Source: a virus
Lineage: Duplodnaviria; Heunggongvirae; Uroviricota; Caudoviricetes
Virus record (IMG/VR): IMGVR_UViG_3300031712_000052
Location: 1 to 30,665 of that record
Strand: one strand, 5' to 3'
DNA length: 30,665 nucleotides
Positions within the stretch are counted from its first letter, which is position 1, and each line of letters starts with the position of its first letter. The notes beneath the pieces were generated by a model. It had not been told where the DNA came from and ran no database searches. It saw only the letters and a program-made list of their open reading frames with translations. A program made the translations under genes and the position numbers. Shown here in pieces: positions 1,864 through 21,865 of this stretch.

Positions 1864-2696
1864 GACACATAACCCAGTCCCACATGCATGCACTGGTTGA
1901 GCAGCTCCAGAAGGAGGCTGCTCTTCCGCTGTCTGGCATTCGTAAGCTAATTCCAGCGGTGCGTGAGGGTCTTAGCAATAGGATGGGCACCTATGGTGGG
2001 AAGCTTGCGATAGGCGCTGGCGCGGGGGCAGCAGTGGGAGCTGGTACTGCAGAGCCTGGTGAAAGGCTTCAGGGCGCTTCTAGAGGGGCTTTAGTTGGTG
2101 GTGGTTTGACTGGTGCTGGGTTGCTGGCTACCAAGGGTGGTAGAGAAGCAGCCAGCAAAGCAACCAAGAAGTTCTGGGACAGATCTAAGTACCAGTTCAC
2201 AGGCCACGGTATAGAAGGTAATCCAGCAGAACAACTTTCTAAAGCTAGGGAGTTAGGGGTGCTTCCAGAGTTGGCGGAGAAGCCACACGCTAAGGACCTG
2301 GCTAGAGATGCAGCCCACCAACAAGCATTCCAACAGGGCTGGCTGACTGTTCCTGGTGCAGTACACGGCATGGTTACACACCCAGGAAAACTGCTCCACA
2401 ATTCCTGGAATAGGATGGGTCAGCTCGAGAAGGGACTGACCGGTGCTGCCGGCGTTGGTATAACTATGGATGCTGCCAGACCTACTGAACCAGGTGGGCC
2501 TGGCAGGCTAGAACGTACCCTAGGCGATGCTGCAAGTACCGTGGGCTACACAGTAGGGCCCTCTGGCCTCTTGCCAAGCTACCTGTTGGGACATTGGGCG
2601 GGGAAAGCAGGAGAGGGTGTCGGCCGAACACTTGGGCAACTGGCGCCTAATAGCGGTGCTGGAGCTCTTACACCTGACGCAGGAGTAGTGGGATGA
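1860..2696 (+). CDS. Gly/Ala-rich putative virion internal protein (278 aa)
   Basis: ATG 1860 is coupled to the upstream stop and is preferred over the ORF-track start 1803. It has an N-terminal EQLQKEAA motif and glycine-zipper-like segments. Its stop overlaps the portal ATG. Confidence 0.7.
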   Translation: MRHITQSHMHALVEQLQKEAALPLSGIRKLIPAVREGLSNRMGTYGGKLAIGAGAGAAVGAGTAEPGERLQGASRGALVGGGLTGAGLLATKGGREAASKATKKFWDRSKYQFTGHGIEGNPAEQLSKARELGVLPELAEKPHAKDLARDAAHQQAFQQGWLTVPGAVHGMVTHPGKLLHNSWNRMGQLEKGLTGAAGVGITMDAARPTEPGGPGRLERTLGDAASTVGYTVGPSGLLPSYLLGHWAGKAGEGVGRTLGQLAPNSGAGALTPDAGVVG

Positions 2697-4735
2697 GTGC
2701 AGGTTTAGGTGGTGCAGATTCCTCTGCTCTCCGCTTCTCTAGGACTAGAGGACGTACCGGTAGCTCCTCAGACTACGGTCTGCAATACCCTAGCCCGTTC
2801 TTCGATATCGGACAGACCTACTTGCCAGCTACGGTCAAGCAGATGTTCCGGTGGTGTCGGTACTACTTCCTGGTGAATCCACTGATCAATGCCGTAGTCT
2901 CCAAGATGGCAGACTACCCCATTACAGACATCATCCTAGACACCGAAAAGCAAGATTTGAAGGAGAGCTGGAACAGCTTTCTCAATGAGCAACTAAGGTA
3001 CCGTCCTTTTCAGATCGAAATAGGTCTGGACTATTACACCTACGGGAATGCTCTTGTCAGCATCTTTTATCCATTCGTGAAGATTCTTCGTTGCACACGC
3101 TGCGGATTCGAGAAGCAGGCATCTGATGCCATATACAGGTTCATGAACTTCGAGTTCCACTGGCAGTGTGAGCAGTGCGATCATTCTGGTATAGCCAAGG
3201 TCCGGGACCATTACATCAAGGCACCCAAGGGTATCAGGCTACTACGATGGAATCCGGAAGACATTGACATCCGATACAACGACATCAGCGGGGAGTACGA
3301 GTACTACTATTCGATCCCGGTGCAGCTGAAGAACGACATTATAATAGGCAAAAAATCGGCGGTAGAGAGTGTGCCCCAGCTGTTCATCGACGCCCTTCGT
3401 TTGAGGAAGGCTGTCGTGTTCAGCAGGGACAATATCTACCACTTCAAGCGGCCTACCCTTGCCGGCAAAGATAGAGGCTGGGGTACTCCTATGATTTTGC
3501 CAGTACTGAAGGATACCTTCTATCTGCAGGTGCTCAGGAAGGCCCAGGAATCCATAGCTCTTGAGCATATCGTTCCCCTGAGGATGCTGTTCCCACAGTC
3601 GGGTTCTGCCACCAGTGACCCCTACACCACAGTCAACTTGCAGGACTGGCATGATCAGATTGCGGGCGAGCTACGTCGGTGGCGTGCAGACAACAACTAC
3701 ATACCCATCCTACCACTTCCTATTGGTCAAGAGACGATAGGCGGCGATGGCAGGGCCCTACTTCTCAGTCAAGAGATTCGGGTATGGTCTGAGCATATTG
3801 TTGCTGGTATGGGAGTACCCAACGAATTGATCTTTGGTGGGCTTAGCTACTCAGGATCTAACGTGTCTTTGCGCATGCTCGAGAACATGTTCTTGGGCTA
3901 CTTGTCTGACCAGTTATCCCTATTGCGGTGGGTGATTGACAGGACAGCATCCTACTTGAGCTGGCCCAAGGTGGGGGCAAGGTTCAAGCCGTTCAAGATG
4001 GCGGACGATCTACAGAGGAAGGCATATCTCTTCCAGCTTAACCAAGCTGGCAAGATGTCTGATGAGTCCTTGATGGCAGATGCTGACTACGACTCGGCTA
4101 AAGAAGACAAGATCATGGAAGTGGAGGCTTCTCGTAGGGTAGCTGCGATGAAGAAGCAGCGACTGCTACAGGCGGAGATGGAGGGAGAGGCCATGCTTGT
4201 CACAGCCAAGTGGCAGAACAAAGCACAAGCCAAGGCCATGGTGGAGCAGGCTGCGATACAGACAGAAGCGGCCAAGGAACAGATGACATTCCAGTCAGAG
4301 ATTCAGAGTGGAATGATGCAAGATCAAGCGGCTGCACAAACGGGTCAGCCTGCACCACAGAAGTCTCCAGACATGGCACCCACACCAAGAGACCCATCCT
4401 TGATTTCACCTCCAAAAGAGATCACATCTCCACTCAGTCTGAGCAGCATTCAACAACATCCAGCTACAGCCACCAACACAGATATCGCGGGTGGGATGAA
4501 TGTAGACTTGCTGTACATGGCTAGACAACTGGCGGACAAGATATCGAGGCTCACTCCTGCAGAGAAGCCAGTAACGCTCAGACGTCTACAAGAACGCAGC
4601 CCAGAGTTGCATGATACGGTTGTTGGGCTAATGATGAGCGGAGCAAATGGCCCCACCGCTGCCTCAGCCGCGTCTGCGAGAGCCCTGCCTATGCAGAGAC
4701 CTCCACAGCGAGGACCTGAAGCAGCGATGGTTTAG
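2693..4735 (+). CDS. Portal protein (680 aa) with Cys4 insertion and Q/A/P-rich C-terminal extension
   Basis: Portal-like segments: NPLINAVVSKMADYPI; YHFKRPTLAG..GWGTPMILPVL; IVAGMGVPNELIFGG..YSGSNVSL. Size and head-module context fit. Assignment is by recalled family motifs, not a search. Confidence 0.78.
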   Translation: MSAGLGGADSSALRFSRTRGRTGSSSDYGLQYPSPFFDIGQTYLPATVKQMFRWCRYYFLVNPLINAVVSKMADYPITDIILDTEKQDLKESWNSFLNEQLRYRPFQIEIGLDYYTYGNALVSIFYPFVKILRCTRCGFEKQASDAIYRFMNFEFHWQCEQCDHSGIAKVRDHYIKAPKGIRLLRWNPEDIDIRYNDISGEYEYYYSIPVQLKNDIIIGKKSAVESVPQLFIDALRLRKAVVFSRDNIYHFKRPTLAGKDRGWGTPMILPVLKDTFYLQVLRKAQESIALEHIVPLRMLFPQSGSATSDPYTTVNLQDWHDQIAGELRRWRADNNYIPILPLPIGQETIGGDGRALLLSQEIRVWSEHIVAGMGVPNELIFGGLSYSGSNVSLRMLENMFLGYLSDQLSLLRWVIDRTASYLSWPKVGARFKPFKMADDLQRKAYLFQLNQAGKMSDESLMADADYDSAKEDKIMEVEASRRVAAMKKQRLLQAEMEGEAMLVTAKWQNKAQAKAMVEQAAIQTEAAKEQMTFQSEIQSGMMQDQAAAQTGQPAPQKSPDMAPTPRDPSLISPPKEITSPLSLSSIQQHPATATNTDIAGGMNVDLLYMARQLADKISRLTPAEKPVTLRRLQERSPELHDTVVGLMMSGANGPTAASAASARALPMQRPPQRGPEAAMV

Positions 4736-5926: not shown

Positions 5927-6012
5927 CTAAACATAACCCCTGTACTTAGGTGTTGCCTCTGTGTCAACCTTAGACACAGCCAGAAGTAAAGTTATCTTAC
6001 TTCTGTACTATC

Positions 6013-6039
6013 CTTATAACGCTTACCGACTTACAATTT
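6013..6039 (-). promoter_or_regulatory. Putative phage promoter motif, copy 1 (AAA-N18-TATAAG)
   Basis: - strand: AAA TTGTAAGTCGGTAAGCGT TATAAG. Intergenic, at the head of the first inverted island. Confidence 0.55.
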
Positions 6040-6104
6040 CATACCCACCAGTCGGGTATCTCTGGTAGTTTGGTGGGGTAACAACACACATTTAGGAGAG
6101 ATTC

Positions 6105-9100
6105 GTGGCACGTATTGTCCCGGCAGAGGGGTTTGATCTCCTCAAAGACCGAGTACAAAATGCAGTCAGCGGTCTCTTCCCGATAGTAGGGAAGAAGAAC
6201 ACGCTAGAGCTTCACGACGTAGCTGTCAGGGACAACCTGGATAGCGGTGACTTCAGGTCTCAGAAGGAGGCCAAACTTGAGGGTAAGTCGTGGGCGGTAC
6301 CGGTGGAGGCTACGGTCTCTTTGAAGGACAATGCTACGGGTAAGGTGATAGATAGGCAGAAGATCAAGCTAATGAGCTTGCCTAAGATCACTAACCGATA
6401 CAGCAGCATAGTTGATGGTCAGGAGTACCAAGTAGATAACCAGTGGCGTTTGAAGCCTGGCGTATACAATATGATCAAGGCTGACGGTGCATTAGAATCG
6501 CACTTCAATGCACCAGGAGGTGGTTTCAAGATCCACTTTGACCCAGCTACTCGTGAGTTCTCTATGGGGTATGGTAACTCCAACATACCTCTCAAGCCTT
6601 TACTCCATGCTATGGGAATGCCGGAAGAGGAGGTAGAGAAGAGGTGGGGTAAGGATATTGCGGCTGCCAATCACGCAGACATGCCCAAGGCGTTGGCTAA
6701 GTTCTACAAGTCTGATACGGGCCTCAAGCCCGCGTCCATCATGACTTCAGAGGATATGCGTGCTCACTTCTGGCAAGTCATGGATAACACCAAGATGAAT
6801 CCAGACGTCAACATGCTCACGTTGGGTAAGCCACACTCCAACGTGACTGGTGCTACGCTACTAGATGCTTCCGTCAAGTTGCTCAAGATTTCTCGTGGAG
6901 AGGCCAAGCCAGATCCTAGAGACGCCATCATGTTCAAGGACCTTCACTCGATGGAGGACTTTGCAGCTGAGAGAATAACTCGAGGCTCTAGAGACATCTT
7001 ACGTAAGATCGGAAATACGGTAGACAAGAAGGACAAGGTCAGAGACATCATAGCTCCGGACATCTTCAATAGACATATACGGCAGCTGTTCTCCAAGAAC
7101 TCTTTGTCTTCAGTACCAAGCCAGACCAATCCTCTTGAAATGATCTCTGCTCAATTCAAGACCACCATCACAGGAGATGGTGGTATCAAGAGCGAGCACA
7201 CAGTCTCTGATGAAGCGAAGCTGATAGACCCGTCCCATTTGGGCTACCTGGATCCCATACACACACCAGAGGGCAAGGAGACTGGCATCACTCTACGACT
7301 GCCCATAGGTGTTACCAAGAACGGCCATGATGTCACCATCCGTATGTACAATCTACATACTGGTAAGACTGAGGACGTCAACCCAACAGTTGCCTACAGG
7401 TCTCATGTAGTCCTTCCAGACCAAGTCAAGTGGGTAGAAGGCAAACCAGTACCCATAGGACCCTCCATAAAGATCAGTGGTCTTGAGAATGAGATCTATG
7501 ACGGCTCCATAAAGAGTGCGGACTATGTAATGAAGGACCCGATGCAAATGTTCTCGTTTGCATCGAACCTCATCCCTTTCATGCCAGCTGACCACCCGAA
7601 CAGAAGTACAATGGCCGGTCGGCAAATGGAGCAATCAGTCTCTCTACTGCACAGAGAGGCCCCACTTGTACAGAGTTTGGCAGGTGTACATAGCTTCGAT
7701 CACTTTGTTGGAGGCTTTGCTAGTCACCATACTCGTGATAGTGGCACTGTTGCTCAGATCAAATCAGATGCTGTAGTTATTAAAGGCGCAGATGGGAAGA
7801 GGCACGAAGTTCAGATTTATGATCACTTTCCGTTGAATGAGGACAAAGCCTTTCTACACTCCACACCCATAGTAAAGGTGGGAGATAAGGTAACGGCTGG
7901 GCAGACGGTGGCCGACACCAACTACACCAAGAACGGTGTGTTGGCTTTGGGTACCAATCTTCGTGTTGGGTTCATGCCATACAAGGGGTACAACTACGAA
8001 GATGGTATTGTAGTTACGGAGAGTGCCGCTAAGAAGCTCACGTCAGAGCATTTACACAGGCACTCAATCGAGAGGGATGTGGCTCACGTCCTAGATAAGC
8101 GTAAGTTCCAGGCGTACATACCCACTGGTATGAATAGAGCCCAAGCTGAGAAGCTTGATGACGAGGGGGTTATCAAGCCTGGCACGGTGGTTATGCCTGG
8201 TGACACTCTCATAGCTGCTCTACGCGCTTCAAATGAGTCAGAGAAGCGGGAGGATGTGCAGCTATCCAAACTGCACAAGTCGATTGTACGGCCATTTAAG
8301 GATGCCAGTGTTACATGGGACAACGACTACCCAGGGGTTGTGAAAGAGGTCGTTAAGACTGGTCATAATGTTGCCGTTCACGTGAAGACAGAAGAGACTC
8401 TAGAGATTGGAGACAAGATCACAGGCCGCCACGGTAACAAGGGCATCATTACTAAGATCATACCTGACCATGAGGCGCCACATACCAAAGATGGTAGGCC
8501 CATAGATGTGATCTTAAACCCATTGGGTGTTACTTGTAGAACCAACCTAGGGCAGGTGTTGGAGGTTGCTGCAGGTAAGATTGCGGAAAAGACAGGCAAG
8601 ACATACTTTACCAAGAACTTCAAACCAGGCGCAGACTTACATGCCCAGGTTACACAGGATTTGGCTAAGCATGGCTTGACGGATAAGGAAACTGTCTACG
8701 ATCCTAGTAACGGAAGACCTATGGGAGATGCACTAGTAGGGCCTATGCATGTCCTCAAATTGCACCACCAGGTAGAAAAGAAACTCAGTGCTCGAGCCCT
8801 GGGTTATGGGTACGCCTACGATAGGAACAAGATACCCAAAGGCGGTGGTCCACATGGCGCTCAGTCTCTAGGAGTGTTGGGTCTGTACTCTATGCTTGCT
8901 CACGGAGCTACAGCAAACCTTCGCGAGATGAATACATTGAAGAGTGATGCAGGCCAAGGAGATCAATTTTGGGCTGCTTTACAAGCAGGAGAACTGCTCC
9001 CTACCCCAAAGCCTACATTTGCGTACAACAAGTTCATCAGTCTGATCAAAGGTCTGAATGTGAATGTAGAGAAGACTGGAAACAGTCTGACGCTTTCTCC

Positions 9101-12100
9101 TATGACAGATAAGCAAGTCCACGAGATGAGCAACGGTGAGCTCAAAGATCCATCTAAGATGACTGTTGCTAAAACCATGCGGCCTGAGCCAGGTGGTCTA
9201 TTCGATCAGAAGATTACAGGTGGTATGGAGGGGGATAAGTGGAGTCACTTCGTATTGCCAGAAGCATTCCCGAATCCAGTATTTGAGGGAGCCATAGTAA
9301 AGCTGACTGGACTCAAGACTAATCAGTATGATGGACTGATCGCAGGTACACTAGCCTATGATCCCATTACAGGTAAGTATGGTGACCCGCTGAAGATTAA
9401 GGGCGGTCTAGTGGGTGGTAAGGCTTTTGCTGCACTACTAGGAAAGATAAATGTGAAGAAGGACCTGGTTGCTGCCTTGGATAAGTTGCAGAAGCCAACA
9501 CTCAAGGGGTCCTACCTAGACGACGTAAACAAACGGGTCAAGTTTTTGAAGGTGCTGGATAAGATCGGTGTCAGCCCCCGTGATGCATACATGATGCAGA
9601 GTGTGCCAGTACTTCCCCCATCCATGCGTCCTTTGCCCATCCTTCCAAACGGTACTATAAGTGAAGATGACTTGAATGGTCTGTACAAGAATCTGCATCT
9701 GACTGCATCCAGATACGCAAAAATGTCCCCGCTCATACCGGACGATGATCAGTCTAAGGTGGAGCTGAGACAAGAAGTGTATGATGGTTTGCGTGCGCTG
9801 GCGGGCATAGGCAGCTACCCACGTGGTATTCGTAGAGGCATCTTGGACTACATTGCCGGCAAGCGTGTAGATCCCAGTACTGGTGCCAAGGTGGGCCCTC
9901 CAAAGGAGGGATTCTTCCAGGAGCAATTGGTCACACGCAAACAGGATATGACTATGCGTGGAACGATTGTCCCAGAGCCCTCACTCAGCCTAGATGAGGT
10001 TGGAATACCAAAGTCTGCAGCTCTAGAACTGTACAAGCCTTTCGTGATTCGAGAACTACGAAATTTGATGGGCATCTCTCCTCTGCAGGCACAGCAGAAA
10101 ATGCAAGAGGGTGGGGAGATAGTAGACCGAGCTTTAGATAGGGTCATCCTCAGTAGGCCAATACTCCTGAAGCGAGACCCCGTGCTTCACAAGTATGGTA
10201 TCCAAGCATTCAAGCCCCGTATTGTCGGTGGAAAGGCTGTTCAAATCCACCCACTAGTCACCAGTGGTTTCAATGCGGACTTCGATGGAGACGCTATGGG
10301 TGCCTTCGTACCTGTAGGCTCAGAGGCCGTGGCTGAAGCACACAAGATGTTCCCCTCCAATAACCTGTTCAGTCCCGCTACTGGTAAGTTGATGTACTCC
10401 CCATCCGGAGAGAGTAGGCTGGGTTTGTATGGACTCACACGTGTAGGAGCTGTCACCAGCCATGAATTCTCTACGATTCAGGATGTGGAGGCTGCGGTCA
10501 GAAAGGGAGAGGTAAAGCTCACAGACCAAATAAAGGTTGGAGGTATACACTCTACAGTTGGCAGGTTCATGGTCGCTGGTGCATTACCAGAGGTTATGAG
10601 GGGAGAGTATCTTGGGAAGACGGACCCTCTAAATGCATCAGCTCAAGAAGAGCTGATGACACGCATCGCGAAGGAGCACAAGAACGAGTACGGACAGTCC
10701 ATCAACAAGCTCAAAGATCTAGGCAACATGTGGGCCACTCAGACTGCCTTTTCAGTTGGTCTCAAAGACGTAGCTCCTATACGGGAAATTAGAGATCAAA
10801 TACTAGCCAAGGCGGATGCCCGAGTAGAGAAGTTGTCAGGGCCGTCTAGAGACGCCAAAGCCATTGAGATCTATGCGAAGGCCACAGAAGAGTTAAATGC
10901 CCACTTGAGGGCCGTACCAGAAGAGGGCAACAATCTCATGTTGTTGCACAACACGGGTATGAAGGGTGGCACGGACACCGTAAGACAGACTAGAGCTGCA
11001 CCTATGCTCATGGCCAATCATAAAGGGGAGATCATACCCAACCCTGTACGTAAGTCTTATGCTGAGGGCTTAGACATTGCCGGTTACTGGACAGCTACCA
11101 GTGGTGGTCGCAAGGGTGTCATTCAGAAGGTTCAGGCAGTTAGAGAGCCTGGTCATATCACTAAGCAGGTTATCAACTCTACGATGAATAACCTCATTCT
11201 AGATCATGACTGTGGTACTAACAAAGGGATCGCTCTATCCGTAGATGAGAAAGATATTCTAGATAGATTCACAGCTGCAGATGTCAGACTTGGCAACAGG
11301 ATAGTAAAGTCAGGCACACTAATCACCCCAGAGTTGCGAAGTGCTCTCAGGAACAACAATGTGGGTAAGGTGGTAGTTAGATCTCCGCTGCGTTGTTTGC
11401 ATGGACCTGGTCTGTGTCAGATGTGCTATGGCCTGACGGAGAATGGAACTCTACCGGAGAGGGGACTGAACGTAGGCATTCTTGCCGGTCAGGCTATAGG
11501 TGAACGTGCAACACAGCTAGCCATGAAAGCATTCCATACTGGTGGTACTGCCTCATCGAAGTCGGCACTTGTTGATCAGTTTGAACAGGTGCAAGACCTG
11601 TTGCTGTTCCCGAAGAATTTGCCAGGTTCAGCAACACTGAGCACAGTATCTGGTAAAGTAACCAAGATAGAAAAGGATACGGCTGGAGGTCACAACGTAC
11701 TCATAGAGGGGGAGCGGCACTACATCCCGCTGTCTAGAGGAGTACCAGTCTATGACAAAAAGCCTTTGGTAGTTGGTACAGAGGTCAAGAAGGGCTTGCC
11801 CATCTCAGATGGTAGGGTGAACCCGCATGAGATGCTGCCTCTGACTGGAATTGAACCAGTACAGGTCATGTTGGCAGATAATCTGGATGACATGTACAAA
11901 GGTCAAGGAATTCGTAGACGTAATCATGAGGTAGTGATCAAGGCGCTCACTAACCTCACCAAGATAAAGGATGCAGGCTCTTCCACACACTTCATTCGAG
12001 GTGACTTTGCGCCCACTACATTCGTGTCCTCATTGAATAGAAGTATGGCTAAGGGAGAACGGCCTATAGTTCATGAGCCCATACTCAAGGGTGTGAATGT

Positions 12101-12284
12101 ACTACCACTAGACATGCAGGAAGATTGGATGGCCAAGCTCAACCACGAGGGTTTGGCAGATACTGTGATCAGCGCAGCACAACAGGGATGGAGAAGCCAT
12201 ATACACGGCCTACATCCAATTCCTGCGGTCGTTTACGCCGCCGAGCTAGGCAAGCCACCTAAAGAACATCCGGAGTGGTACTGA
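6105..12284 (+). CDS. rpoBC: Fused beta/beta-prime multisubunit-type DNA-directed RNA polymerase (2059 aa)
   Basis: Beta motifs: DPIHTPEG, GYNYEDGI, GDKITGRHGNKG, LNPLGV..R.NLGQ. Beta-prime motifs: catalytic NADFDGD (nt 10272-10292), VPVLPPSMRP, LKRDPVLHKYGIQAF, Zn site DCGT..RSPLRC..LCQMCYG, trigger loop QAIGERATQLAMKAFHTGG. One uninterrupted frame with the junction near aa 990. GTG start with AGGAG SD. Confidence 0.97.
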   Translation: MARIVPAEGFDLLKDRVQNAVSGLFPIVGKKNTLELHDVAVRDNLDSGDFRSQKEAKLEGKSWAVPVEATVSLKDNATGKVIDRQKIKLMSLPKITNRYSSIVDGQEYQVDNQWRLKPGVYNMIKADGALESHFNAPGGGFKIHFDPATREFSMGYGNSNIPLKPLLHAMGMPEEEVEKRWGKDIAAANHADMPKALAKFYKSDTGLKPASIMTSEDMRAHFWQVMDNTKMNPDVNMLTLGKPHSNVTGATLLDASVKLLKISRGEAKPDPRDAIMFKDLHSMEDFAAERITRGSRDILRKIGNTVDKKDKVRDIIAPDIFNRHIRQLFSKNSLSSVPSQTNPLEMISAQFKTTITGDGGIKSEHTVSDEAKLIDPSHLGYLDPIHTPEGKETGITLRLPIGVTKNGHDVTIRMYNLHTGKTEDVNPTVAYRSHVVLPDQVKWVEGKPVPIGPSIKISGLENEIYDGSIKSADYVMKDPMQMFSFASNLIPFMPADHPNRSTMAGRQMEQSVSLLHREAPLVQSLAGVHSFDHFVGGFASHHTRDSGTVAQIKSDAVVIKGADGKRHEVQIYDHFPLNEDKAFLHSTPIVKVGDKVTAGQTVADTNYTKNGVLALGTNLRVGFMPYKGYNYEDGIVVTESAAKKLTSEHLHRHSIERDVAHVLDKRKFQAYIPTGMNRAQAEKLDDEGVIKPGTVVMPGDTLIAALRASNESEKREDVQLSKLHKSIVRPFKDASVTWDNDYPGVVKEVVKTGHNVAVHVKTEETLEIGDKITGRHGNKGIITKIIPDHEAPHTKDGRPIDVILNPLGVTCRTNLGQVLEVAAGKIAEKTGKTYFTKNFKPGADLHAQVTQDLAKHGLTDKETVYDPSNGRPMGDALVGPMHVLKLHHQVEKKLSARALGYGYAYDRNKIPKGGGPHGAQSLGVLGLYSMLAHGATANLREMNTLKSDAGQGDQFWAALQAGELLPTPKPTFAYNKFISLIKGLNVNVEKTGNSLTLSPMTDKQVHEMSNGELKDPSKMTVAKTMRPEPGGLFDQKITGGMEGDKWSHFVLPEAFPNPVFEGAIVKLTGLKTNQYDGLIAGTLAYDPITGKYGDPLKIKGGLVGGKAFAALLGKINVKKDLVAALDKLQKPTLKGSYLDDVNKRVKFLKVLDKIGVSPRDAYMMQSVPVLPPSMRPLPILPNGTISEDDLNGLYKNLHLTASRYAKMSPLIPDDDQSKVELRQEVYDGLRALAGIGSYPRGIRRGILDYIAGKRVDPSTGAKVGPPKEGFFQEQLVTRKQDMTMRGTIVPEPSLSLDEVGIPKSAALELYKPFVIRELRNLMGISPLQAQQKMQEGGEIVDRALDRVILSRPILLKRDPVLHKYGIQAFKPRIVGGKAVQIHPLVTSGFNADFDGDAMGAFVPVGSEAVAEAHKMFPSNNLFSPATGKLMYSPSGESRLGLYGLTRVGAVTSHEFSTIQDVEAAVRKGEVKLTDQIKVGGIHSTVGRFMVAGALPEVMRGEYLGKTDPLNASAQEELMTRIAKEHKNEYGQSINKLKDLGNMWATQTAFSVGLKDVAPIREIRDQILAKADARVEKLSGPSRDAKAIEIYAKATEELNAHLRAVPEEGNNLMLLHNTGMKGGTDTVRQTRAAPMLMANHKGEIIPNPVRKSYAEGLDIAGYWTATSGGRKGVIQKVQAVREPGHITKQVINSTMNNLILDHDCGTNKGIALSVDEKDILDRFTAADVRLGNRIVKSGTLITPELRSALRNNNVGKVVVRSPLRCLHGPGLCQMCYGLTENGTLPERGLNVGILAGQAIGERATQLAMKAFHTGGTASSKSALVDQFEQVQDLLLFPKNLPGSATLSTVSGKVTKIEKDTAGGHNVLIEGERHYIPLSRGVPVYDKKPLVVGTEVKKGLPISDGRVNPHEMLPLTGIEPVQVMLADNLDDMYKGQGIRRRNHEVVIKALTNLTKIKDAGSSTHFIRGDFAPTTFVSSLNRSMAKGERPIVHEPILKGVNVLPLDMQEDWMAKLNHEGLADTVISAAQQGWRSHIHGLHPIPAVVYAAELGKPPKEHPEWY

Positions 12285-12287
12285 TCT

Positions 12288-13532
12288 ATGGCTGCTTCCT
12301 TTAAGAACTCCGCTTCTAGAACTGGTAACAGAACAGCAAGGTTCGAGACCGGTGTAATAGCCAGCGTAAACGTCCAGAACATGACGGTGGATTGGACTGC
12401 ACAGCACAGCGGAAAACAGATGGCTGGAGTACAGGTGATGTCGCCCTACCTGCACTACAACAATGGGGAGGGGTACAACTTCTGCCCGGAGGTGGGGGCA
12501 ATTTGCGTGTTGTGCTGGCCCTCTGATGAGGAGTCTCCTTTTGTCATGGGCTTCATCACAGCTCCAGAAATAGTAGGGGCTGCCTCTGGAAATGTGCAAC
12601 AGGAGTCGCAGGACCCGGATGTAGAGAGTCCTGATGACATGCCTTCTGCTCAGACCACCAACTCAGGTGGTACTACCACACCCAAGACTACAGACGCCAG
12701 CTATCGTGCTGGTCGTCCTGTAATGAATCCAGGCGACATATGGATACAGGGTAGGGATGAGAACTTTTTGATCTTGAAGAGGGGTGGAGTTCTTCATATA
12801 GGATCTACGAACGTATGCCAGCGTGCCTATGTCCCTATTGCCAATTACATTCGTGACTTCTGTGAGAACTACGAGCTCAACACAGCGGCCGGTTCTTTGT
12901 CTTGGCTAGTTCATCCTGTCGAGAAAGATCCTGGGGGCAATGCACCCACTGAGTTCACCCTACTGGCCAGGGAGTTTGCACAAGACAGGAATGCCTCCAT
13001 CAAGGTTAGCGTAGGTTCTTTGAATTCAGAACCTAAGCCTCCTGGCGGACCTAGTGATGACAAAACATTCATAGAGGTTGTGATTGCACCCAGTAACATA
13101 GATCCAGCAAGTGGCCAGGTGTCGGGAGACCCAACTTACGTACTGAGGATATCTAAGGATGGCCACTCCTACTCCATGCAGGCTGGCAATCGTACGGTGG
13201 AGGTGAAGGGTAACGATTCCCTGACTGTTGAAGGAGACCAAACCATTCAGGTAACCGGAGACCGTTCAGTAACTGTGCAGGGTAAGGTTACTGAGACCAT
13301 CACAGGTGAACATAACATCACTGGGTCGGATGCAAGTACCGAGACTTGGGCTAAGATCAAGGTAATCGATGCTCCCCTCACAAAAATAGGTGGTCCTGAC
13401 GCTTCCGAGCCGGGCACTCTTGGGTTAAAGTTGTTGGAGTGGCTTGCTACCCACACACATGTGCCGTACTCTCCACCCATACAGGCGGGAACATTGCAGT
13501 CCATTCTATCCAAGAAAGTGATGCTTAAATAG
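12288..13532 (+). CDS. Contractile-tail central spike (gp5/gpV/VgrG-like, 414 aa)
   Basis: N-terminal OB-fold-like segment (ETGVIASVNVQNMTVDW...P.VGAICVL), 8-residue beta-helix repeats (VEVKGNDSLTVEGDQTIQVTGDRSVTVQGKVTETITG), and a C-terminal HxH metal-tip motif (THTH). Confidence 0.8.
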   Translation: MAASFKNSASRTGNRTARFETGVIASVNVQNMTVDWTAQHSGKQMAGVQVMSPYLHYNNGEGYNFCPEVGAICVLCWPSDEESPFVMGFITAPEIVGAASGNVQQESQDPDVESPDDMPSAQTTNSGGTTTPKTTDASYRAGRPVMNPGDIWIQGRDENFLILKRGGVLHIGSTNVCQRAYVPIANYIRDFCENYELNTAAGSLSWLVHPVEKDPGGNAPTEFTLLAREFAQDRNASIKVSVGSLNSEPKPPGGPSDDKTFIEVVIAPSNIDPASGQVSGDPTYVLRISKDGHSYSMQAGNRTVEVKGNDSLTVEGDQTIQVTGDRSVTVQGKVTETITGEHNITGSDASTETWAKIKVIDAPLTKIGGPDASEPGTLGLKLLEWLATHTHVPYSPPIQAGTLQSILSKKVMLK

Positions 13533-17518: not shown

Positions 17519-20500
17519 ATGGCCACAATCACACTGGCAGAGGCTGAACTTCTTAGATCTGCACACACCATTCCACTCTCATACTGTTTTGATGATCATG
17601 GAATAGTCGAACCTATCTTTGATTATGATGAGGGTGGCGAGGCTGTAGACTTTGGTATAGACGAGGAGCCTGAAGAAGTAGACCCCTCTAGTGCTCTTAC
17701 CTCTACAGAGATGCTTGGTGTATCTCCATCCGACTTCGCAGAGACGGCGATTCGAGTTCCTGAAGCGGGTAGGATAGGTGACTTCTCATTTACCGGTCGT
17801 GAGTACCTGCGTAAGATATATGATACGCCTGCAAACAAAGTTCTCATGCTTTGCGGCCGGCAGGTAGAGAAATGCTGTCTCGCAGCAAGCATGATTTCTA
17901 TGGAAGACGGCGGTGTAACACCCCTAGAGAAGATTTGTGTAGGAGACAAAGTAGTAGGCATGTCTCCTGATGGTGCGCATACACAAATAGGATCAGTAAC
18001 TTGGAAGTCTGCAAAACTTAGAAAGACTTGCGTAAAGATCAAGACTAGACAGGGCCATACTGTGGTGGTGGCATTGACCCATCCAATGCGCACCTGGGGT
18101 GGCTGGTCAATCTCTGGTGGTCTCTCTGAGCAGGAGCATATTGCGGCAGTTCGGAGAGCTGGGGAGTTTACAAGTACTTCTACTCCGCCAGATAGAAAGG
18201 TGATCTTAGCAGCGTACATGATTGCAGAAGGGTACTTGCCCGAGCAAGATACGTGTACCTTTACTCAGGGCGAAGGGCCAGTCTTGCAGGAGTTTCTAGA
18301 GTTGGTTGCAGGTGATGACTATAGCCCCAATGAGAGAAAGCCTGGCCTGTGGAGTATTCGATTCAATGCAGAGTCTGCCGTACTAAAACTGGTGAAGGAG
18401 TGTGGTATCTGGGGAGAGTTGTCTGCAGACAAGCATGTACCAGACTTTGTGTGGGGATTAGATCAAAGACAAACAGCCCTATTCATCAATCGTTTATGGG
18501 CCGGCGATGGCCATGCAAGTTTGCAAGATTCATCGTACCACCTGGAGTACGATTCTATTTCTGAGCACTTGATCAAAGATGTGCAGCGTCTTCTATGGAA
18601 GTTTGGCATTCCTTCCAGTACACGTAGATGGAAACCCACATTGTACAAAGGTACTGACAAGTGGGCGTACAAGCTGCGGATAGAAACACAAGCTGGGGCT
18701 GTCAGATTCATAGAAGACATTGGTGCTCTTGGAAAGACAGAGGACATTCCAATCATCGACGTAGATACTAACTCCAACAGGGATGTGTACCCGGCTGGTA
18801 TTGTGGAGGATATAGCTATCATACACAGGTCTAGAAACGGCTTCCGCAGCGGGCCCTACGTACCACAACCATCCCTAAGATCTGCCGGACTTAGGGAGAA
18901 ACCTAAGTACTTGTTGAGTCATGACAAACTTGAACAGTATGTAGACTTCTTCAGATCAGACACAAGATTTGATCAAGATAAAACATCTGCCCTTGCTCAA
19001 CACCTGAGCACGGATTTGTACTGGGATGAGATAGTGAGTATCGAAGAGGTGGGAGAGCAGGATTGTTATGACATCACTGTGGATGGTACTGACAGCTTCG
19101 TGGTAGATGGACTCATCACACACAACTCGACTACACTGGGCAACCGGCTGCTCTGCTACTCAGCCCTCACCAACAACTTCAGGTCCCTGTACGTAGCTCC
19201 TTCAGCGGAACAGGCGAAGGTCTTTTCCAATGACCGCATCAAGGATGTCATAGATGCGTCCCCCATGCTGAGGTCCTACACCTCAGCTAAGATCAACCAG
19301 GCTGTCTTCTTCAAGAAGTTTATCAACTACTCTCAGATCAGACTTCGTTATGCGTATCTAACTGCAGACCGTGTTCGTGGTATTCCTGCAGACATGGTAC
19401 TGATCGACGAGCTTCAAGACGTTTTGATCGATAACATCCCAGTCATCGAGCAGTGTGCCTTCCACTCTAGCTACAAGCTATTCTTGTACTCAGGCACACC
19501 CAAGTCAGTAGATAACACCATAGAATTCTACTGGTCTGAGTTCTCCTCACAGAACGAGTGGGTAGTACCCTGTGAGCGGCATGGGTTACCCAGTGACTCG
19601 AGTACCTGGCATTGGAATGTTCTAACGGAGAAGAACATAGGGTCTACGGGGCTCATCTGTGACAAGTGTGGGGAGTCTATAACCGCACGGCATCCCATGG
19701 CACAGTGGGCTGCCATGAACCCCATGCGGGAGGACAACAAGGACAAGGTTACCTTCGAGGGATACCGCATTCCTCAGATCATGGTCCCCTGGGTAGACTG
19801 GGAAGAGGTACTAGTAGCCCAAGAGCAATACTCCCGTTCCCAGTTCATGAATGAGAAGCTTGGTAGGTCCTATGACTCCGGTGTACGACCAATCACCCGA
19901 GCTCAACTGCAGGCTGTGTGCAAGCCTGAGATCGTACTGGGTGACATAGAGTCCTTTCGTAGACTAGCGCAGGGTATGTCCATCTATGCTGGAGTGGACT
20001 GGGGTCCTGGAGAGAACGCCAGCTTCACTCACGTTTCATTTGGTGGATACTTCGGCACAGGCAACTTCTCCATCTTCTGGTGTCATCGATTTACTGGGCA
20101 AGACCTAGACCCAGAACGGCAGCTGGACCTACTCACGCAGATGTTGTCTCAGGTACACGTTAAGATCATAGGTGTAGACTACGGTGGTGGTTTCTATCAG
20201 AACGACAAGCTCATCAAGCGTTTCGGCGCCAACAAGGTAATGAAGTACCAGTACAATCCTAGGCAAAAAAAGAAGATCTATTGGGAGCCAAACCTGCGTC
20301 GCTGGATGTGCCATCGTACAGAGGTAATGAGCGATGGGTTCAATGCTCTGAAGGCAAAGAAGATAGACTTGCCCAGGTGGGAGGACTACCAGGACCCACA
20401 TGGTACAGACATCCTCAACATCTTCACCGAGCACAACGAGAGACTCAGGATGAACGAGTACAAGAAGCCGCCGGGAAAGACGGATGATGCATTCCACTCT

Positions 20501-20599
20501 ATGCTTCTGTGCTTGTTGGCATCTTGCATAGAGAGACCACGTCCAGACATCTTTGCACCTATGCAGGACAGCGGCCTTATGGAGAATTACAGCTTCTGA
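17519..20599 (+). CDS. terL: Terminase large subunit, intein-containing (1026 aa precursor; 608 aa spliced)
   Basis: Split Walker A GRQVEK/STT, Walker B MVLIDE, coupling motif YSGTP, Cys cluster (CERH..CDKC), and nuclease acidic motifs AGVDWG, GVDYGGG, DDAFHS. Confidence 0.92.
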   Translation: MATITLAEAELLRSAHTIPLSYCFDDHGIVEPIFDYDEGGEAVDFGIDEEPEEVDPSSALTSTEMLGVSPSDFAETAIRVPEAGRIGDFSFTGREYLRKIYDTPANKVLMLCGRQVEKCCLAASMISMEDGGVTPLEKICVGDKVVGMSPDGAHTQIGSVTWKSAKLRKTCVKIKTRQGHTVVVALTHPMRTWGGWSISGGLSEQEHIAAVRRAGEFTSTSTPPDRKVILAAYMIAEGYLPEQDTCTFTQGEGPVLQEFLELVAGDDYSPNERKPGLWSIRFNAESAVLKLVKECGIWGELSADKHVPDFVWGLDQRQTALFINRLWAGDGHASLQDSSYHLEYDSISEHLIKDVQRLLWKFGIPSSTRRWKPTLYKGTDKWAYKLRIETQAGAVRFIEDIGALGKTEDIPIIDVDTNSNRDVYPAGIVEDIAIIHRSRNGFRSGPYVPQPSLRSAGLREKPKYLLSHDKLEQYVDFFRSDTRFDQDKTSALAQHLSTDLYWDEIVSIEEVGEQDCYDITVDGTDSFVVDGLITHNSTTLGNRLLCYSALTNNFRSLYVAPSAEQAKVFSNDRIKDVIDASPMLRSYTSAKINQAVFFKKFINYSQIRLRYAYLTADRVRGIPADMVLIDELQDVLIDNIPVIEQCAFHSSYKLFLYSGTPKSVDNTIEFYWSEFSSQNEWVVPCERHGLPSDSSTWHWNVLTEKNIGSTGLICDKCGESITARHPMAQWAAMNPMREDNKDKVTFEGYRIPQIMVPWVDWEEVLVAQEQYSRSQFMNEKLGRSYDSGVRPITRAQLQAVCKPEIVLGDIESFRRLAQGMSIYAGVDWGPGENASFTHVSFGGYFGTGNFSIFWCHRFTGQDLDPERQLDLLTQMLSQVHVKIIGVDYGGGFYQNDKLIKRFGANKVMKYQYNPRQKKKIYWEPNLRRWMCHRTEVMSDGFNALKAKKIDLPRWEDYQDPHGTDILNIFTEHNERLRMNEYKKPPGKTDDAFHSMLLCLLASCIERPRPDIFAPMQDSGLMENYSF
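17873..19126 (+). mobile_element. Intein with LAGLIDADG homing endonuclease (418 aa)
   Basis: Block A CCLAASMISMEDG, block B ..LTHP, LAGLIDADG-like ILAAYMIAEG and FINRLWAGDG, and blocks F/G CYDITVDGTDSFVVDGLITHN followed by +1 Ser. Confidence 0.95.
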
Positions 20600-21838: not shown

Positions 21839-21865
21839 CTTATACCCTACTAGAGCCCTGTTTTT
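21839..21865 (-). promoter_or_regulatory. Putative phage promoter motif, copy 4 (AAA-N18-TATAAG)
   Basis: - strand: AAA AACAGGGCTCTAGTAGGG TATAAG. Intergenic, upstream of the 21749 gene. Confidence 0.65.

What the first reader, a model, noticed from the sequence alone, without database searches (positions are those of the whole stretch)
6105..12284. Single-chain, compact beta+beta-prime RNA polymerase in a tailed phage
Seen: all core beta and beta-prime motifs occur in cellular order in one 2059-aa frame. The beta C-terminus (..KGLNVNVEK) runs straight into the beta-prime N-terminus (SLTLSPMT..) at about nt 9070-9090. The halves are about 990 and 1070 aa, against 1342 and 1407 in E. coli. No alpha, omega or sigma gene is recognisable in the window. 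Known: rpoBC fusions exist in Helicobacter and Wolbachia; phiKZ and AR9 RNAPs are split over several genes; crAss-like virion RNAPs are single-chain but far more divergent; a metagenomic Caudovirales lineage with deep-branching beta/beta-prime RNAPs has been reported (Weinheimer and Aylward 2020). Inference: a minimal, possibly alpha-independent two-barrel enzyme.
Basis: partly seen in the sequence, partly recalled or inferred. Interest (0 to 1): 0.88.

Follow-up and report, generated by a model that had tools for sequence, protein, structure and literature searches.

The report
Single-chain bacterial-type phage RNA polymerase
One 2059-codon gene of a large uncultured tailed phage joins both catalytic subunits of a bacterial-type RNA polymerase into a single slimmed-down protein; this layout is shared by hundreds of related phages, I found no paper describing it, and it may be carried in the virus particle.

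Summary
ORF 6105-12284 (+) is one uninterrupted 2059-aa frame. It encodes a complete RNA polymerase beta (aa 1-990), a 4-residue connector (TGNS) and a complete beta' (aa 995-2059). All catalytic motifs are intact.

The fusion is not an artefact. An identical protein lies on an independent contig, 78 of 78 informative IMG/VR relatives span the junction in frame, and more than 150 distinct 50%-identity clusters are fused.

It was not recently captured from a host. The best cellular matches are only 27-32% identical and are spread over many phyla, and the phage clade sits on a long separate branch.

The small size comes mainly from missing lineage-specific insertions, the missing beta' zinc-binding domain and trimmed termini.

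No alpha or omega gene was found in this genome or in five complete relatives. The genome does encode a FliA-like sigma outside the window.

The nearest cultured relatives are Salmonella phage Arash and Vibrio phage D69. They have beta fused to the N-terminal part of beta', with the C-terminal part as a separate gene. In Arash this protein gave the most spectra of any protein in the virion preparation, so virion packaging is plausible but only inferred here.

This scan has already met the same family on several other genomes. Verdict: a new variant of a known kind.

The parts
6094..6099 (+). Shine-Dalgarno AGGAGA, 5 nt before the GTG start
   Evidence: Sequence read. The family consensus N-terminus (MAxLxPxxxF) matches this start.
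6105..12284 (+). Whole gene: single-chain beta-beta' RNA polymerase, 2059 aa plus stop
6105..9074 (+). Beta module (aa 1-990), including the N-terminal lobes that Pfam does not detect
   Evidence: AF2 model pLDDT 88.1, pTM 0.82. Foldseek top 50 hits are all bacterial beta, TMq 0.76-0.81 over about 1090 columns. blastp to Salmonella RpoB.
8235..8282 (+). Flap-tip helix region (aa 711-726). A helix is present, but its sequence differs from the near-invariant bacterial LTPEE(K/R)LLRAIFGEK.
   Evidence: Model helix H715-723 with lower pLDDT; alignment block.
8409..8444 (+). Beta active-site motif GDKITGRHGNKG (aa 769-780). K771 and K779 are invariant in 70 family members.
9075..9086 (+). Four-residue connector TGNS (aa 991-994) between the beta C-terminus (GLNVNVEK) and the beta' N-terminal strand (LTLSPMTDKQV, equivalent to E. 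coli IALASPDMIRSW)
   Evidence: The junction region is conserved (0.61-0.71 column identity, about 0 gaps) in 134 members. It is modelled as a beta-hairpin in both half-models.
9087..12281 (+). Beta' module (aa 995-2059)
   Evidence: AF2 model pLDDT 89.0, pTM 0.82. Foldseek top 50 hits are all bacterial beta', TMq 0.73-0.86. phmmer to PDB beta', E 1e-104.
9219..9239 (+). Short loop GGMEGDK (aa 1039-1045) standing where bacteria have the 32-residue beta' zinc-binding domain (C-x-C...C-x-x-C). The domain is absent in the whole phage clade.
   Evidence: the family consensus has no Cys here.
9669..9803 (+). Clamp helices (coiled coil, aa 1189-1233), the site where sigma region 2 docks in bacteria. 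The fold is present, but the sequence has diverged from the near-invariant bacterial one and also varies within the family.
   Evidence: Model helices H204-221 and H231-248 of the beta' half; alignment block; complex prediction with the phage sigma gave weak support.
10272..10292 (+). Catalytic Mg-binding motif NADFDGD (aa 1390-1396); the three Asp are invariant in the family
11211..11426 (+). Second beta' zinc site retained (C1703, C1764, C1771, C1774)
   Evidence: all four are nearly invariant in alignment A2.
11487..11552 (+). Trigger loop (..GQAIGERATQLAMKAFHTGG..), with H1811 invariant. The bridge helix lies upstream at aa about 1665-1695.
2693..4735 (+). Portal protein gene, conserved upstream neighbour of the RNAP gene (context)
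   Evidence: 32% identity, E 2e-93, to Arash gp204 portal. A portal homologue lies upstream in 42 of 80 IMG/VR loci.
6013..6018 (-). TATAAG box of a recurrent bipartite promoter-like motif (GAAAAT-like, 15-17 nt, (G)GTATAAG). It points away from the RNAP gene, towards the minus-strand genes 5967-4732.
   Evidence: k-mer enrichment and context listing.
12288..13532 (+). gp5-like tail spike/baseplate hub gene directly downstream (context: virion module)
   Evidence: Pfam Gp5_C and PHROG baseplate hub. A homologue lies downstream in 53 of 80 loci.

Best explanation
The gene encodes a catalytically competent, bacterial-type RNA polymerase core made as one polypeptide. A full beta is joined by four residues to a full beta' that has lost its first ~20 residues and its zinc-binding domain. 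It belongs to a large, old, phage-only clade found in tailed phages of about 170-200 kb, in which the fusion is conserved. Each complete genome checked has one such gene and no alpha or omega gene. I therefore infer that the covalent link replaces the alpha-dimer assembly platform, and that loss of the beta' C-terminal tail goes with loss of omega. I also infer that promoter recognition is by phage-encoded sigma-family factors: here a 202-aa FliA/WhiG-like sigma, reading a recurrent GAAAAT-N15-17-GGTATAAG-type motif. The gene is the first of a plus-strand virion-gene block, just after the portal gene, and its Arash orthologue gave the most spectra of any protein in the virion preparation. On that basis I think it more likely than not (about 55%) that the enzyme is packaged and delivered with the DNA to start phage transcription. 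Shown: the architecture, its conservation, intact motifs, the fold, the phylogenetic separation, and the absence of alpha/omega genes. Inferred: activity, alpha-independence, sigma use, packaging.
For: The frame is uninterrupted and the domains are in cellular order. The Asp triad, the two beta lysines and the trigger-loop His are invariant. AF2 half-models have pLDDT 88-89, and Foldseek top hits are all bacterial beta or beta' with TMq 0.73-0.86. The fusion is conserved: more than 120 clusters of about 2040-2080 aa, or longer with inteins; all 150 best 50%-identity representatives span or abut the junction; 78 of 80 IMG/VR loci span it in frame and the other 2 are truncated; the junction columns are conserved and gap-free. 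An identical protein lies on an independent contig. It is not cellular: the best of 595 genome contigs relatives are 27-32% identical and spread over phyla; the score drops sharply from the phage family to bacteria; in the tree the phage clade has support 0.976, bacteria 1.0, with a long separating branch. No PF01000, PF01193 or PF01192 was found in Arash, D69 or three 100%-complete relatives, and no PF01000 or PF01193 in the own contig. There is one RNAP locus per genome. The own sigma scores 70.9 bits on TIGR02937 against a cut-off of 42.9, and is FliA/WhiG-like. Sigma docking on the phage clamp helices: complex prediction gave WEAK support, score 0.32 against best control 0.00. That mark was reached by 58 of 80 solved complexes and 2 of 110 mismatched pairs, but at 0.60 or under by only 7 of the 80 and by both mismatches. 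The runs agree in at least 5% of contacts and the partner's pLDDT is at least 60. Like complexes are solved, so the pass may be from memory. GTATAAG is enriched in intergenic DNA: 8 of 16 copies against 11.8% of the genome being intergenic. Six of these lie 10-68 nt upstream of a same-strand gene. Virion link: portal-RNAP synteny with Arash. In Arash virion mass spectrometry, Gp206 gave 3516 spectra (the highest), Gp216 1210 and sigma Gp10 467 (PMC10585845).
Against: There are no activity, expression or proteomic data for this phage or for any fully fused relative. The Arash proteome lists 116 'virion' proteins, including ribonucleotide reductases, so carry-over is possible, and its authors say so. 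Arash is only 34% identical. The own sigma has no detectable homologue in five relatives, and three complete fused-clade genomes show only weak, sub-threshold hits to sigma region 4, so sigma use is not established across the family. Absence of alpha rests on Pfam-level six-frame searches, and host alpha could still be used. The contig is only 71% complete. The RNAP gene follows a divergent intergenic region and may have its own promoter, so its position does not fix its timing.
Confidence: 0.7

Rival explanations
1. It is the same single-chain enzyme, but it is not packaged. It is made after infection from its own promoter and serves as a middle/late polymerase, possibly assembling on host alpha and using host or phage sigma. 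Early genes are read by the host enzyme.
For: The gene follows a divergent intergenic region (5968-6104) and could have its own promoter. The Arash proteome is permissive, and its authors offer carry-over of abundant proteins as an alternative. According to an earlier first-stage note, the RNAP carries few copies of the candidate head-protease motif (not tested here).
Against: The gene is embedded in the virion gene block next to the portal across the whole clade. The Arash orthologue has the highest spectral count of any protein in the virion preparation, about 2.6 times the major capsid protein's count. The sigma-docking surfaces have diverged from the near-invariant bacterial ones.
Confidence: 0.22
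2. It is a recent capture of a host rpoB-rpoC operon, or of a cellular rpoBC fusion such as those of Helicobacter, Wolbachia or CPR bacteria.
For: Its closest solved structures and NCBIfam models are bacterial. Cellular fusions exist, including a 2284-aa frame in a Paceibacterota MAG.
Against: The best cellular identity is 27-32%, with no preferred phylum. NF007172 and NF011417 score 579 and 512 bits against cut-offs of 5372 and 4632. The phage clade is separate from all 23 sampled bacterial pairs, and the Paceibacterota fusion groups with bacteria. The phage family itself diverges down to 35% identity.
Confidence: 0.01
3. The fusion is an assembly or sequencing artefact that removed a stop or shifted a frame between two genes.
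For: A few relatives have two frames: L089 (adjacent beta and beta'), L091 (overlapping frames) and L090 (genes 4.3 kb apart).
Against: An identical protein lies on an independent contig. 78 of 78 informative IMG/VR loci and hundreds of clusters from JGI, ENA, Logan and NCBI are fused. The junction is conserved and gap-free. Arash and D69, which are isolate genomes, also fuse beta to beta'.
Confidence: 0.01
4. It is a catalytically dead polymerase relic used as a structural or DNA-binding virion protein.
For: It is encoded among structural genes and lacks the zinc-binding domain.
Against: The Asp triad, the beta lysines, the trigger-loop His and the second zinc site are invariant or nearly invariant across members that share only 35% identity. 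Many relatives carry inteins in this gene.
Confidence: 0.02

Closest known systems
RNAP of Salmonella phage Arash (Gp206 + Gp216) and of Vibrio phages D69/D148/D181
   Same: These are the sister clade in my tree. Beta is fused to beta' through the same short junction, the zinc-binding domain is absent, and the portal gene lies just upstream. No alpha or omega gene was found. A sigma gene is present.
   Different: There beta' is cut after the catalytic barrel, giving a 1525-aa beta plus N-terminal beta' and a separate ~606-aa C-terminal beta'. The second gene lies about 0.6 kb away in D69 and about 4.8 kb away in Arash. Here everything is one chain. Identity is only 31-34%. Their records and the Arash paper annotate them simply as 'beta' or 'hypothetical', and do not note the fusion.
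mReC, multisubunit-RNAP-encoding Caudovirales (Weinheimer and Aylward 2020, PMC7481178)
   Same: Uncultured tailed phages with bacterial-like, compact beta (about 1000 aa) and beta' (about 900-1000 aa) that branch apart from cellular enzymes.
   Different: Every mReC row in the part of their Supplementary Data 2 that I read lists two different proteins, and the paper mentions fusion only for crAssphage. I did not place my sequence in a tree with their sequences.
Cellular RpoBC fusions (Helicobacter/Wolinella, Wolbachia; NCBIfam NF007172, NF011417) and engineered E. coli beta-beta' tethers
   Same: Beta C-terminus joined to beta' N-terminus in one active chain. This shows that the topology is tolerated (established knowledge).
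   Different: Those are ordinary bacterial enzymes of about 2840-2890 aa that still use alpha2 and omega and keep the zinc-binding domain. This protein scores about a tenth of their NCBIfam cut-offs and is phylogenetically separate.
phiKZ/AR9-type jumbo-phage multisubunit RNAPs
   Same: Phage-encoded two-barrel enzymes with no alpha or omega. One of the two sets is virion-packaged (PMC7598289).
   Different: Those are split into 4-5 polypeptides, come as two paralogous sets, have no sigma, and are much more divergent (PHROG E 1e-30 to 1e-8 here, against 1e-104 to bacterial beta'). Here there is one chain and one copy, and a sigma is present.
Single-chain two-barrel phage RNAPs: crAss-like gp66, YonO, P23-45 tape-measure-fused RNAP
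   Same: Single polypeptide; some are virion-delivered.
   Different: Those are so divergent that cellular beta/beta' HMMs do not detect them (PMC7481178). This protein aligns end to end with bacterial beta and beta'.

Membership tests
Bacterial-type multisubunit RNAP catalytic core (beta + beta') | Beta' NADFDGD Mg-binding triad in a double-psi beta-barrel | tested here: met
   aa 1390-1396; the three Asp are invariant in 70 members; Rpb1_2, E 1e-25.
Bacterial-type multisubunit RNAP catalytic core (beta + beta') | Beta barrel with the two active-site lysines (GDK..GRxGNKG) | tested here: met
   aa 769-780; K771 and K779 invariant; Rpb2_6, E 3e-62.
Bacterial-type multisubunit RNAP catalytic core (beta + beta') | Full-length fold equivalence to bacterial beta and beta' | tested here: met
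   TMq 0.76-0.81 for beta and 0.73-0.86 for beta'; all top 50 PDB hits are bacterial.
Bacterial-type multisubunit RNAP catalytic core (beta + beta') | Beta' N-terminal zinc-binding domain | tested here: not met
   32 columns present in at least 60% of sampled bacteria are replaced by GGMEGDK, with no Cys, across the whole clade.
Bacterial-type multisubunit RNAP catalytic core (beta + beta') | Alpha dimer and omega partners encoded or used | tested here: not met
   No PF01000, PF01193 or PF01192 in five complete relatives, and no PF01000 or PF01193 in the own contig. Use of host alpha is not testable here.
Cellular RpoBC fusion (NF007172 / NF011417) | Score above the equivalog cut-off | tested here: not met
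   578.7 bits against 5372, and 511.9 bits against 4632.
Cellular RpoBC fusion (NF007172 / NF011417) | Placement inside Bacteria | tested here: not met
   Separate clade on a long branch; at most 32% identity to any cellular beta'.
mReC (Weinheimer and Aylward 2020) | Phage contig with high-scoring COG0085- and COG0086-type matches and an NADxDGD motif | tested here: met
   (portal, terminase, MCP and spike on the same contig).
mReC (Weinheimer and Aylward 2020) | Beta and beta' as two proteins | tested here: not met
   One ORF here. All mReC rows that I read have two proteins.
mReC (Weinheimer and Aylward 2020) | Clusters with the published mReC sequences in a tree | not tested
   Their sequences were not retrievable with these tools. 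I only show separation from Bacteria.
phiKZ/AR9-type jumbo-phage RNAP | Beta and beta' split into 4-5 polypeptides, with two paralogous sets (virion and non-virion) | tested here: not met
   Single chain. One locus in the own contig and in three complete relatives.
phiKZ/AR9-type jumbo-phage RNAP | No sigma-family factor in the genome | tested here: not met
   FliA/WhiG-like sigma, 70.9 bits on TIGR02937.
Arash/D69-type phage RNAP | Beta fused to beta' through a short junction; portal gene upstream | tested here: met
Arash/D69-type phage RNAP | Beta' divided after the catalytic barrel into two genes | tested here: not met
   The frame is continuous here through aa 1447-1530. Arash Gp206 ends at about query residue 1460-1479.
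Arash/D69-type phage RNAP | Presence of the enzyme in purified virions | not testable with these tools
   Known only for Arash, by mass spectrometry (PMC10585845).

The most novel reading that the evidence does not exclude
This is a self-sufficient two-protein transcription machine. A 230-kDa single-chain core folds and works without alpha or omega. A small phage sigma reads a lineage-wide GAAAAT-N15-17-GGTATAAG promoter class. The core, and perhaps the sigma, is packaged in the capsid and delivered through a contractile tail to start infection independently of the host polymerase. That would be the simplest natural bacterial-type holoenzyme, and the first virion-delivered one that is still closely comparable to cellular RNAP.
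Probability: 0.35. Interest if true: 0.85.

Novelty: new variant of a known kind. Interest (0 to 1): 0.68.

Why it matters
All cellular multisubunit RNA polymerases need an alpha-type platform to assemble. The only known exceptions are highly divergent phage enzymes, which are hard to compare with the bacterial one. This clade offers a natural, single-gene, bacterial-like core: about 30% identical to bacterial beta/beta', with the same fold, and with no alpha, omega or beta' zinc-binding domain.

If it is active on its own, it would show how far a two-barrel enzyme can be reduced. It would be a convenient one-gene orthogonal polymerase (plus a small sigma) for biochemistry and synthetic biology. 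It would also give a tractable system (Arash and D69 are cultured) for asking how a very large polymerase is packaged and delivered.

The family is abundant in metagenomes, and I found no description of it in the literature I could search.

Tried and rejected
1. Recent host capture was rejected: cellular identity is at most 32%, the hits are scattered over phyla, and the clade is separate.

2. Assembly artefact was rejected.

3. Membership in the Helicobacter/Wolbachia fused families was rejected on NCBIfam cut-offs.

4. I looked for homologues of the own sigma in Arash, D69 and three complete relatives. I used a six-frame protein search and phmmer of their sigma-like ORFs against all ORFs of this contig. 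Nothing was found, so sigma orthology across the clade is unresolved. PF04542 is also silent in the three complete fused-clade genomes, and TIGR02937 gives only sub-threshold region-4 hits there.

5. De novo k-mer enrichment in upstream regions gave only one enriched 8-mer, GGTATAAG. The motif set is small (about 8-10 sites), and I did not build a statistical model of the -35 part.

6. An RNA fold of the 5' region 5968-6110 is not better than shuffles (z -0.73).

8. Literature searches for a description of fused phage rpoBC found none. The library is limited to open-access papers and bioRxiv.

9. I could not place the published mReC sequences, archaeal, eukaryal or NCLDV enzymes, or phiKZ/AR9 subunits in my tree. 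The tree is therefore unrooted in effect, and 'deep-branching' cannot be told from 'fast-evolving'.

Full report
**Observation.** The window has one uninterrupted open frame at 6105-12284 on the plus strand. It is 2059 aa long and starts at GTG, 5 nt after an AGGAGA ribosome-binding site. Pfam finds beta domains followed by beta' domains in cellular order. The best matches among solved structures are bacterial beta' chains, with E about 1e-104. At nt 9060-9100 the protein reads GLNVNVEK-TGNS-LTLSPMTDKQV. GLNVNVEK corresponds to the bacterial beta C-terminus (E. coli ..GINIELED). LTLSPMTDKQV corresponds to beta' residues about 21-33 (IALASPDMIRSW). Only four residues lie between them, and there is no stop or frame change.

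**Reality of the fusion.** An identical 2059-aa protein is encoded on an independent JGI metagenome contig.
- A word-indexed search of 5.8 billion proteins returned more than 120 clusters at 45-100% identity. Almost all are 2040-2080 aa, or 2400-3600 aa when they carry inteins or LAGLIDADG domains. Their contigs reach 199 kb.
- An exhaustive HMMER search with a junction-spanning piece (aa 560-1480) returned 150 representatives of 50%-identity clusters. Their matches run across the junction, or are broken only by inserts.
- Among 80 IMG/VR loci, 78 span the junction in a single in-frame HSP. The other two are cut by a contig end.
- In an alignment of 134 full-length members, which diverge to 35% identity, the junction region (aa 961-1060) is as conserved as the catalytic regions and has almost no gaps.
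- A few relatives have two frames: L089, L090 and L091. L089 nests inside the fused clade, so its split is secondary or an error.

**What the protein keeps and lacks.**
- The NADFDGD aspartates, the two beta lysines, the trigger-loop histidine and the four cysteines of the second beta' zinc site are invariant or nearly invariant in 70-sequence alignments.
- AlphaFold models of the two halves are confident: pLDDT 88.1 and 89.0, pTM 0.82 for both.
- Foldseek aligns them end to end with bacterial beta (TMq 0.76-0.81) and beta' (TMq 0.73-0.86). Every one of the top 50 hits is a bacterial RNAP. The N-terminal 250 residues that Pfam misses are therefore the ordinary beta lobes.
- An alignment with 23 bacterial pairs shows where length is lost (beta' numbers corrected by +28). 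The losses are the E. coli insertions SI1 (beta 225-341), SI2 (beta 934-1045), beta 1127-1180 and SI3 (beta' about 957-1128), about 32 residues of termini at the junction, several small loops, the beta' C-terminal tail, and the 32-residue beta' zinc-binding domain.
- The zinc-binding domain is replaced by GGMEGDK in the whole clade, including Arash and D69.
- At 2059 aa the protein is about 25% shorter than E. coli beta plus beta' (2749 aa). It is about 10% shorter than the smallest bacterial pairs in my sample (about 2265-2300 aa, approximate).
- So 'compact' is right. It describes a trimmed bacterial core, not a radically minimal enzyme.

**Origin.** A scan of one genome for each of 185,579 prokaryotic species found 595 relatives. 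The best 80 are only 27-32% identical and are spread over Actinomycetota, Bacillota, Patescibacteria, Atribacterota, Pseudomonadota and others. Among unfused proteins the score drops sharply from the phage family (at least 37% identity, E at most 1e-114) to bacterial beta' (29%, E 1e-102).

I built a FastTree LG+gamma tree with 56 concatenated sequences and 1975 columns. It contains 22 bacterial pairs, one fused Paceibacterota frame, Arash, D69, L089 and 30 fused members. I left out the other 57 bacterial loci, and had no Archaea, Eukarya, NCLDV, phiKZ/AR9 or published mReC sequences to include. The tree separates a phage clade (support 0.976) from Bacteria (support 1.0) by a long branch. Bacterial phyla group together within the bacterial clade. 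Arash and D69 are sister to the fully fused clade. Recent capture is excluded. Without an outgroup, whether the clade is 'deep' or merely fast-evolving cannot be decided.

**Partners.**
- Six-frame Pfam searches find no alpha N-terminal domain (PF01000, PF01193) in this 133.5-kb contig, which is 71% complete.
- They find no alpha or omega (PF01192) in Arash, D69 or three 100%-complete IMG/VR relatives. One of those three has terminal repeats, and the closest is 60% identical in beta'.
- Each of those genomes has a single RNAP locus.
- Outside the window, the contig encodes a 202-aa sigma-70-family protein with regions 2 and 4. It scores 70.9 bits on TIGR02937 against a cut-off of 42.9, and its closest models are FliA/WhiG. 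The contig also encodes a 157-aa protein with region 4 only.
- Arash and D69 have clear sigma genes. The three complete fused-clade genomes show only weak region-4 hits. The sigma of this contig has no detectable homologue in any of the five genomes.
- The two sigma-docking surfaces, the beta' clamp helices and the beta flap tip, are present as structure. However, they have diverged from sequences that are almost identical across bacterial phyla, and they also vary within the family. This fits fast co-evolution with phage-specific initiation factors, but that is an inference.
- A complex prediction of the clamp region with the own sigma gave weak support only: score 0.32 against best control 0.00. 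The mark was reached by 58 of 80 solved complexes and 2 of 110 mismatched pairs, but at 0.60 or under by only 7 of the 80 and by both mismatches. The runs agree in at least 5% of contacts and the partner's pLDDT is at least 60. Like complexes are solved, so memory cannot be excluded.

**Promoter-like motif.** The only 8-mer enriched in upstream regions is GGTATAAG. Of 16 GTATAAG copies, 8 are intergenic, although only 11.8% of the contig is intergenic (binomial p about 2e-4, my calculation). Six of these lie 10-68 nt upstream of a same-strand gene. Most are preceded 15-17 nt upstream by a GAAAAT-like box. Earlier notes of this scan report the same TATAAG-type box in other fused-RNAP phages and in Arash and D69; I did not recheck those genomes. 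In the window the motif heads two minus-strand blocks of small genes (6013, 21839). It does not head the plus-strand virion block that begins with the RNAP gene.

**Context and likely role.** The gene lies between a portal gene and a gp5-like spike gene. The portal gene (2693-4735) is 32% identical to the Arash portal, E 2e-93. Further downstream are a large terminase with an intein, a prohead-protease-like gene and the major capsid gene. The portal-RNAP-spike neighbourhood recurs in the relatives.

For Arash, the authors' mass spectrometry of purified particles found the beta-beta'N protein Gp206 to be the most detected protein (3516 spectra). Gp216 gave 1210 spectra and sigma Gp10 gave 467. 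The authors suggest either packaging for early transcription or carry-over of abundant proteins (PMC10585845). Their list of 116 proteins is permissive. I therefore rate packaging at about 55%.

**Comparison with known systems.** The enzyme works like a bacterial core. It fails membership in the cellular fused families. It differs from phiKZ/AR9 enzymes, which have split subunits, two sets and no sigma. It differs from crAss/YonO-type single chains, which cellular HMMs do not detect. The mReC set of Weinheimer and Aylward contains two-gene forms in every row I read, and the paper does not mention a fused form in these phages. The Arash record and paper call Gp206 simply 'beta'. Four literature searches found no description of this fused family.

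This scan has already reported the same family on several other genomes. My results agree with those notes. I reached the Arash and virion reading and the GGTATAAG enrichment before I read the corresponding notes.

**Verdict.** It is a new variant of a known kind. Its interest is moderately high because it offers a natural one-gene bacterial-type polymerase that is probably independent of alpha and omega and possibly delivered by the virion.

Noticed in passing
window 17519-20599 (+): The large terminase gene (1026 aa) carries an intein with a LAGLIDADG homing-endonuclease domain (Intein_splicing 126-536, LAGLIDADG_3 319-402), ahead of the GpA-type ATPase domain.
   Followed up: partly
relatives P0004-P0017, P0122, P0138 and others: Many orthologues of this RNAP are 2400-4700 aa because they carry one to several inteins or homing-endonuclease domains (PF14528, PF14890, PF05204, PF03161). 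The copy in this window has none.
   Followed up: no
L031:163-7014 (Candidatus Paceibacterota MAG, DATJQA010000074.1): A single 2284-aa open frame covers both rpoB and rpoC in a CPR bacterium. This is an apparently cellular beta-beta' fusion that groups with Saccharibacteria in my tree, and so is independent of the phage fusion.
   Followed up: partly
window 6013-6018 (-), 21839-21844 (-); contig 47737, 79553, 101864, 103396: A recurrent bipartite promoter-like motif, GAAAAT-like box then 15-17 nt then (G)GTATAAG, lies upstream of blocks of small genes. It is absent in front of the plus-strand virion block.
   Followed up: partly
L091:5270-11432 (JGI 3300027792, Ga0209287_10000809): A relative 60% identical in beta', with the same gene order, has the RNAP in two frames that overlap by 56 nt (928 + 1143 aa). 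This is a frameshift near the junction, and it could be real or a sequencing error.
   Followed up: no
L001:5914-10491 and L092:142-1962 (Arash); L002:4920-9503 and 10142-11971 (D69): The break in beta' in Arash and D69 falls after the catalytic barrel (query residue about 1460-1479). That is near where cyanobacterial gamma (rpoC1) ends in the NCBIfam alignments (query 1103-1478).
   Followed up: no
window 5981-6005 (+): A 9-bp inverted repeat, CAGAAGTAA..TTACTTCTG, lies in the divergent intergenic region upstream of the RNAP gene. The fold of the whole region is not better than shuffles (z -0.73).
   Followed up: yes
L155 (IMGVR_UViG_3300017989_000171, 46,462 bp): This fused-RNAP contig comes from metagenome 3300017989. 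Weinheimer and Aylward list only two-gene mReC contigs from that metagenome. This hints that fused forms were filtered out of, or absent from, their version of the data.
   Followed up: no
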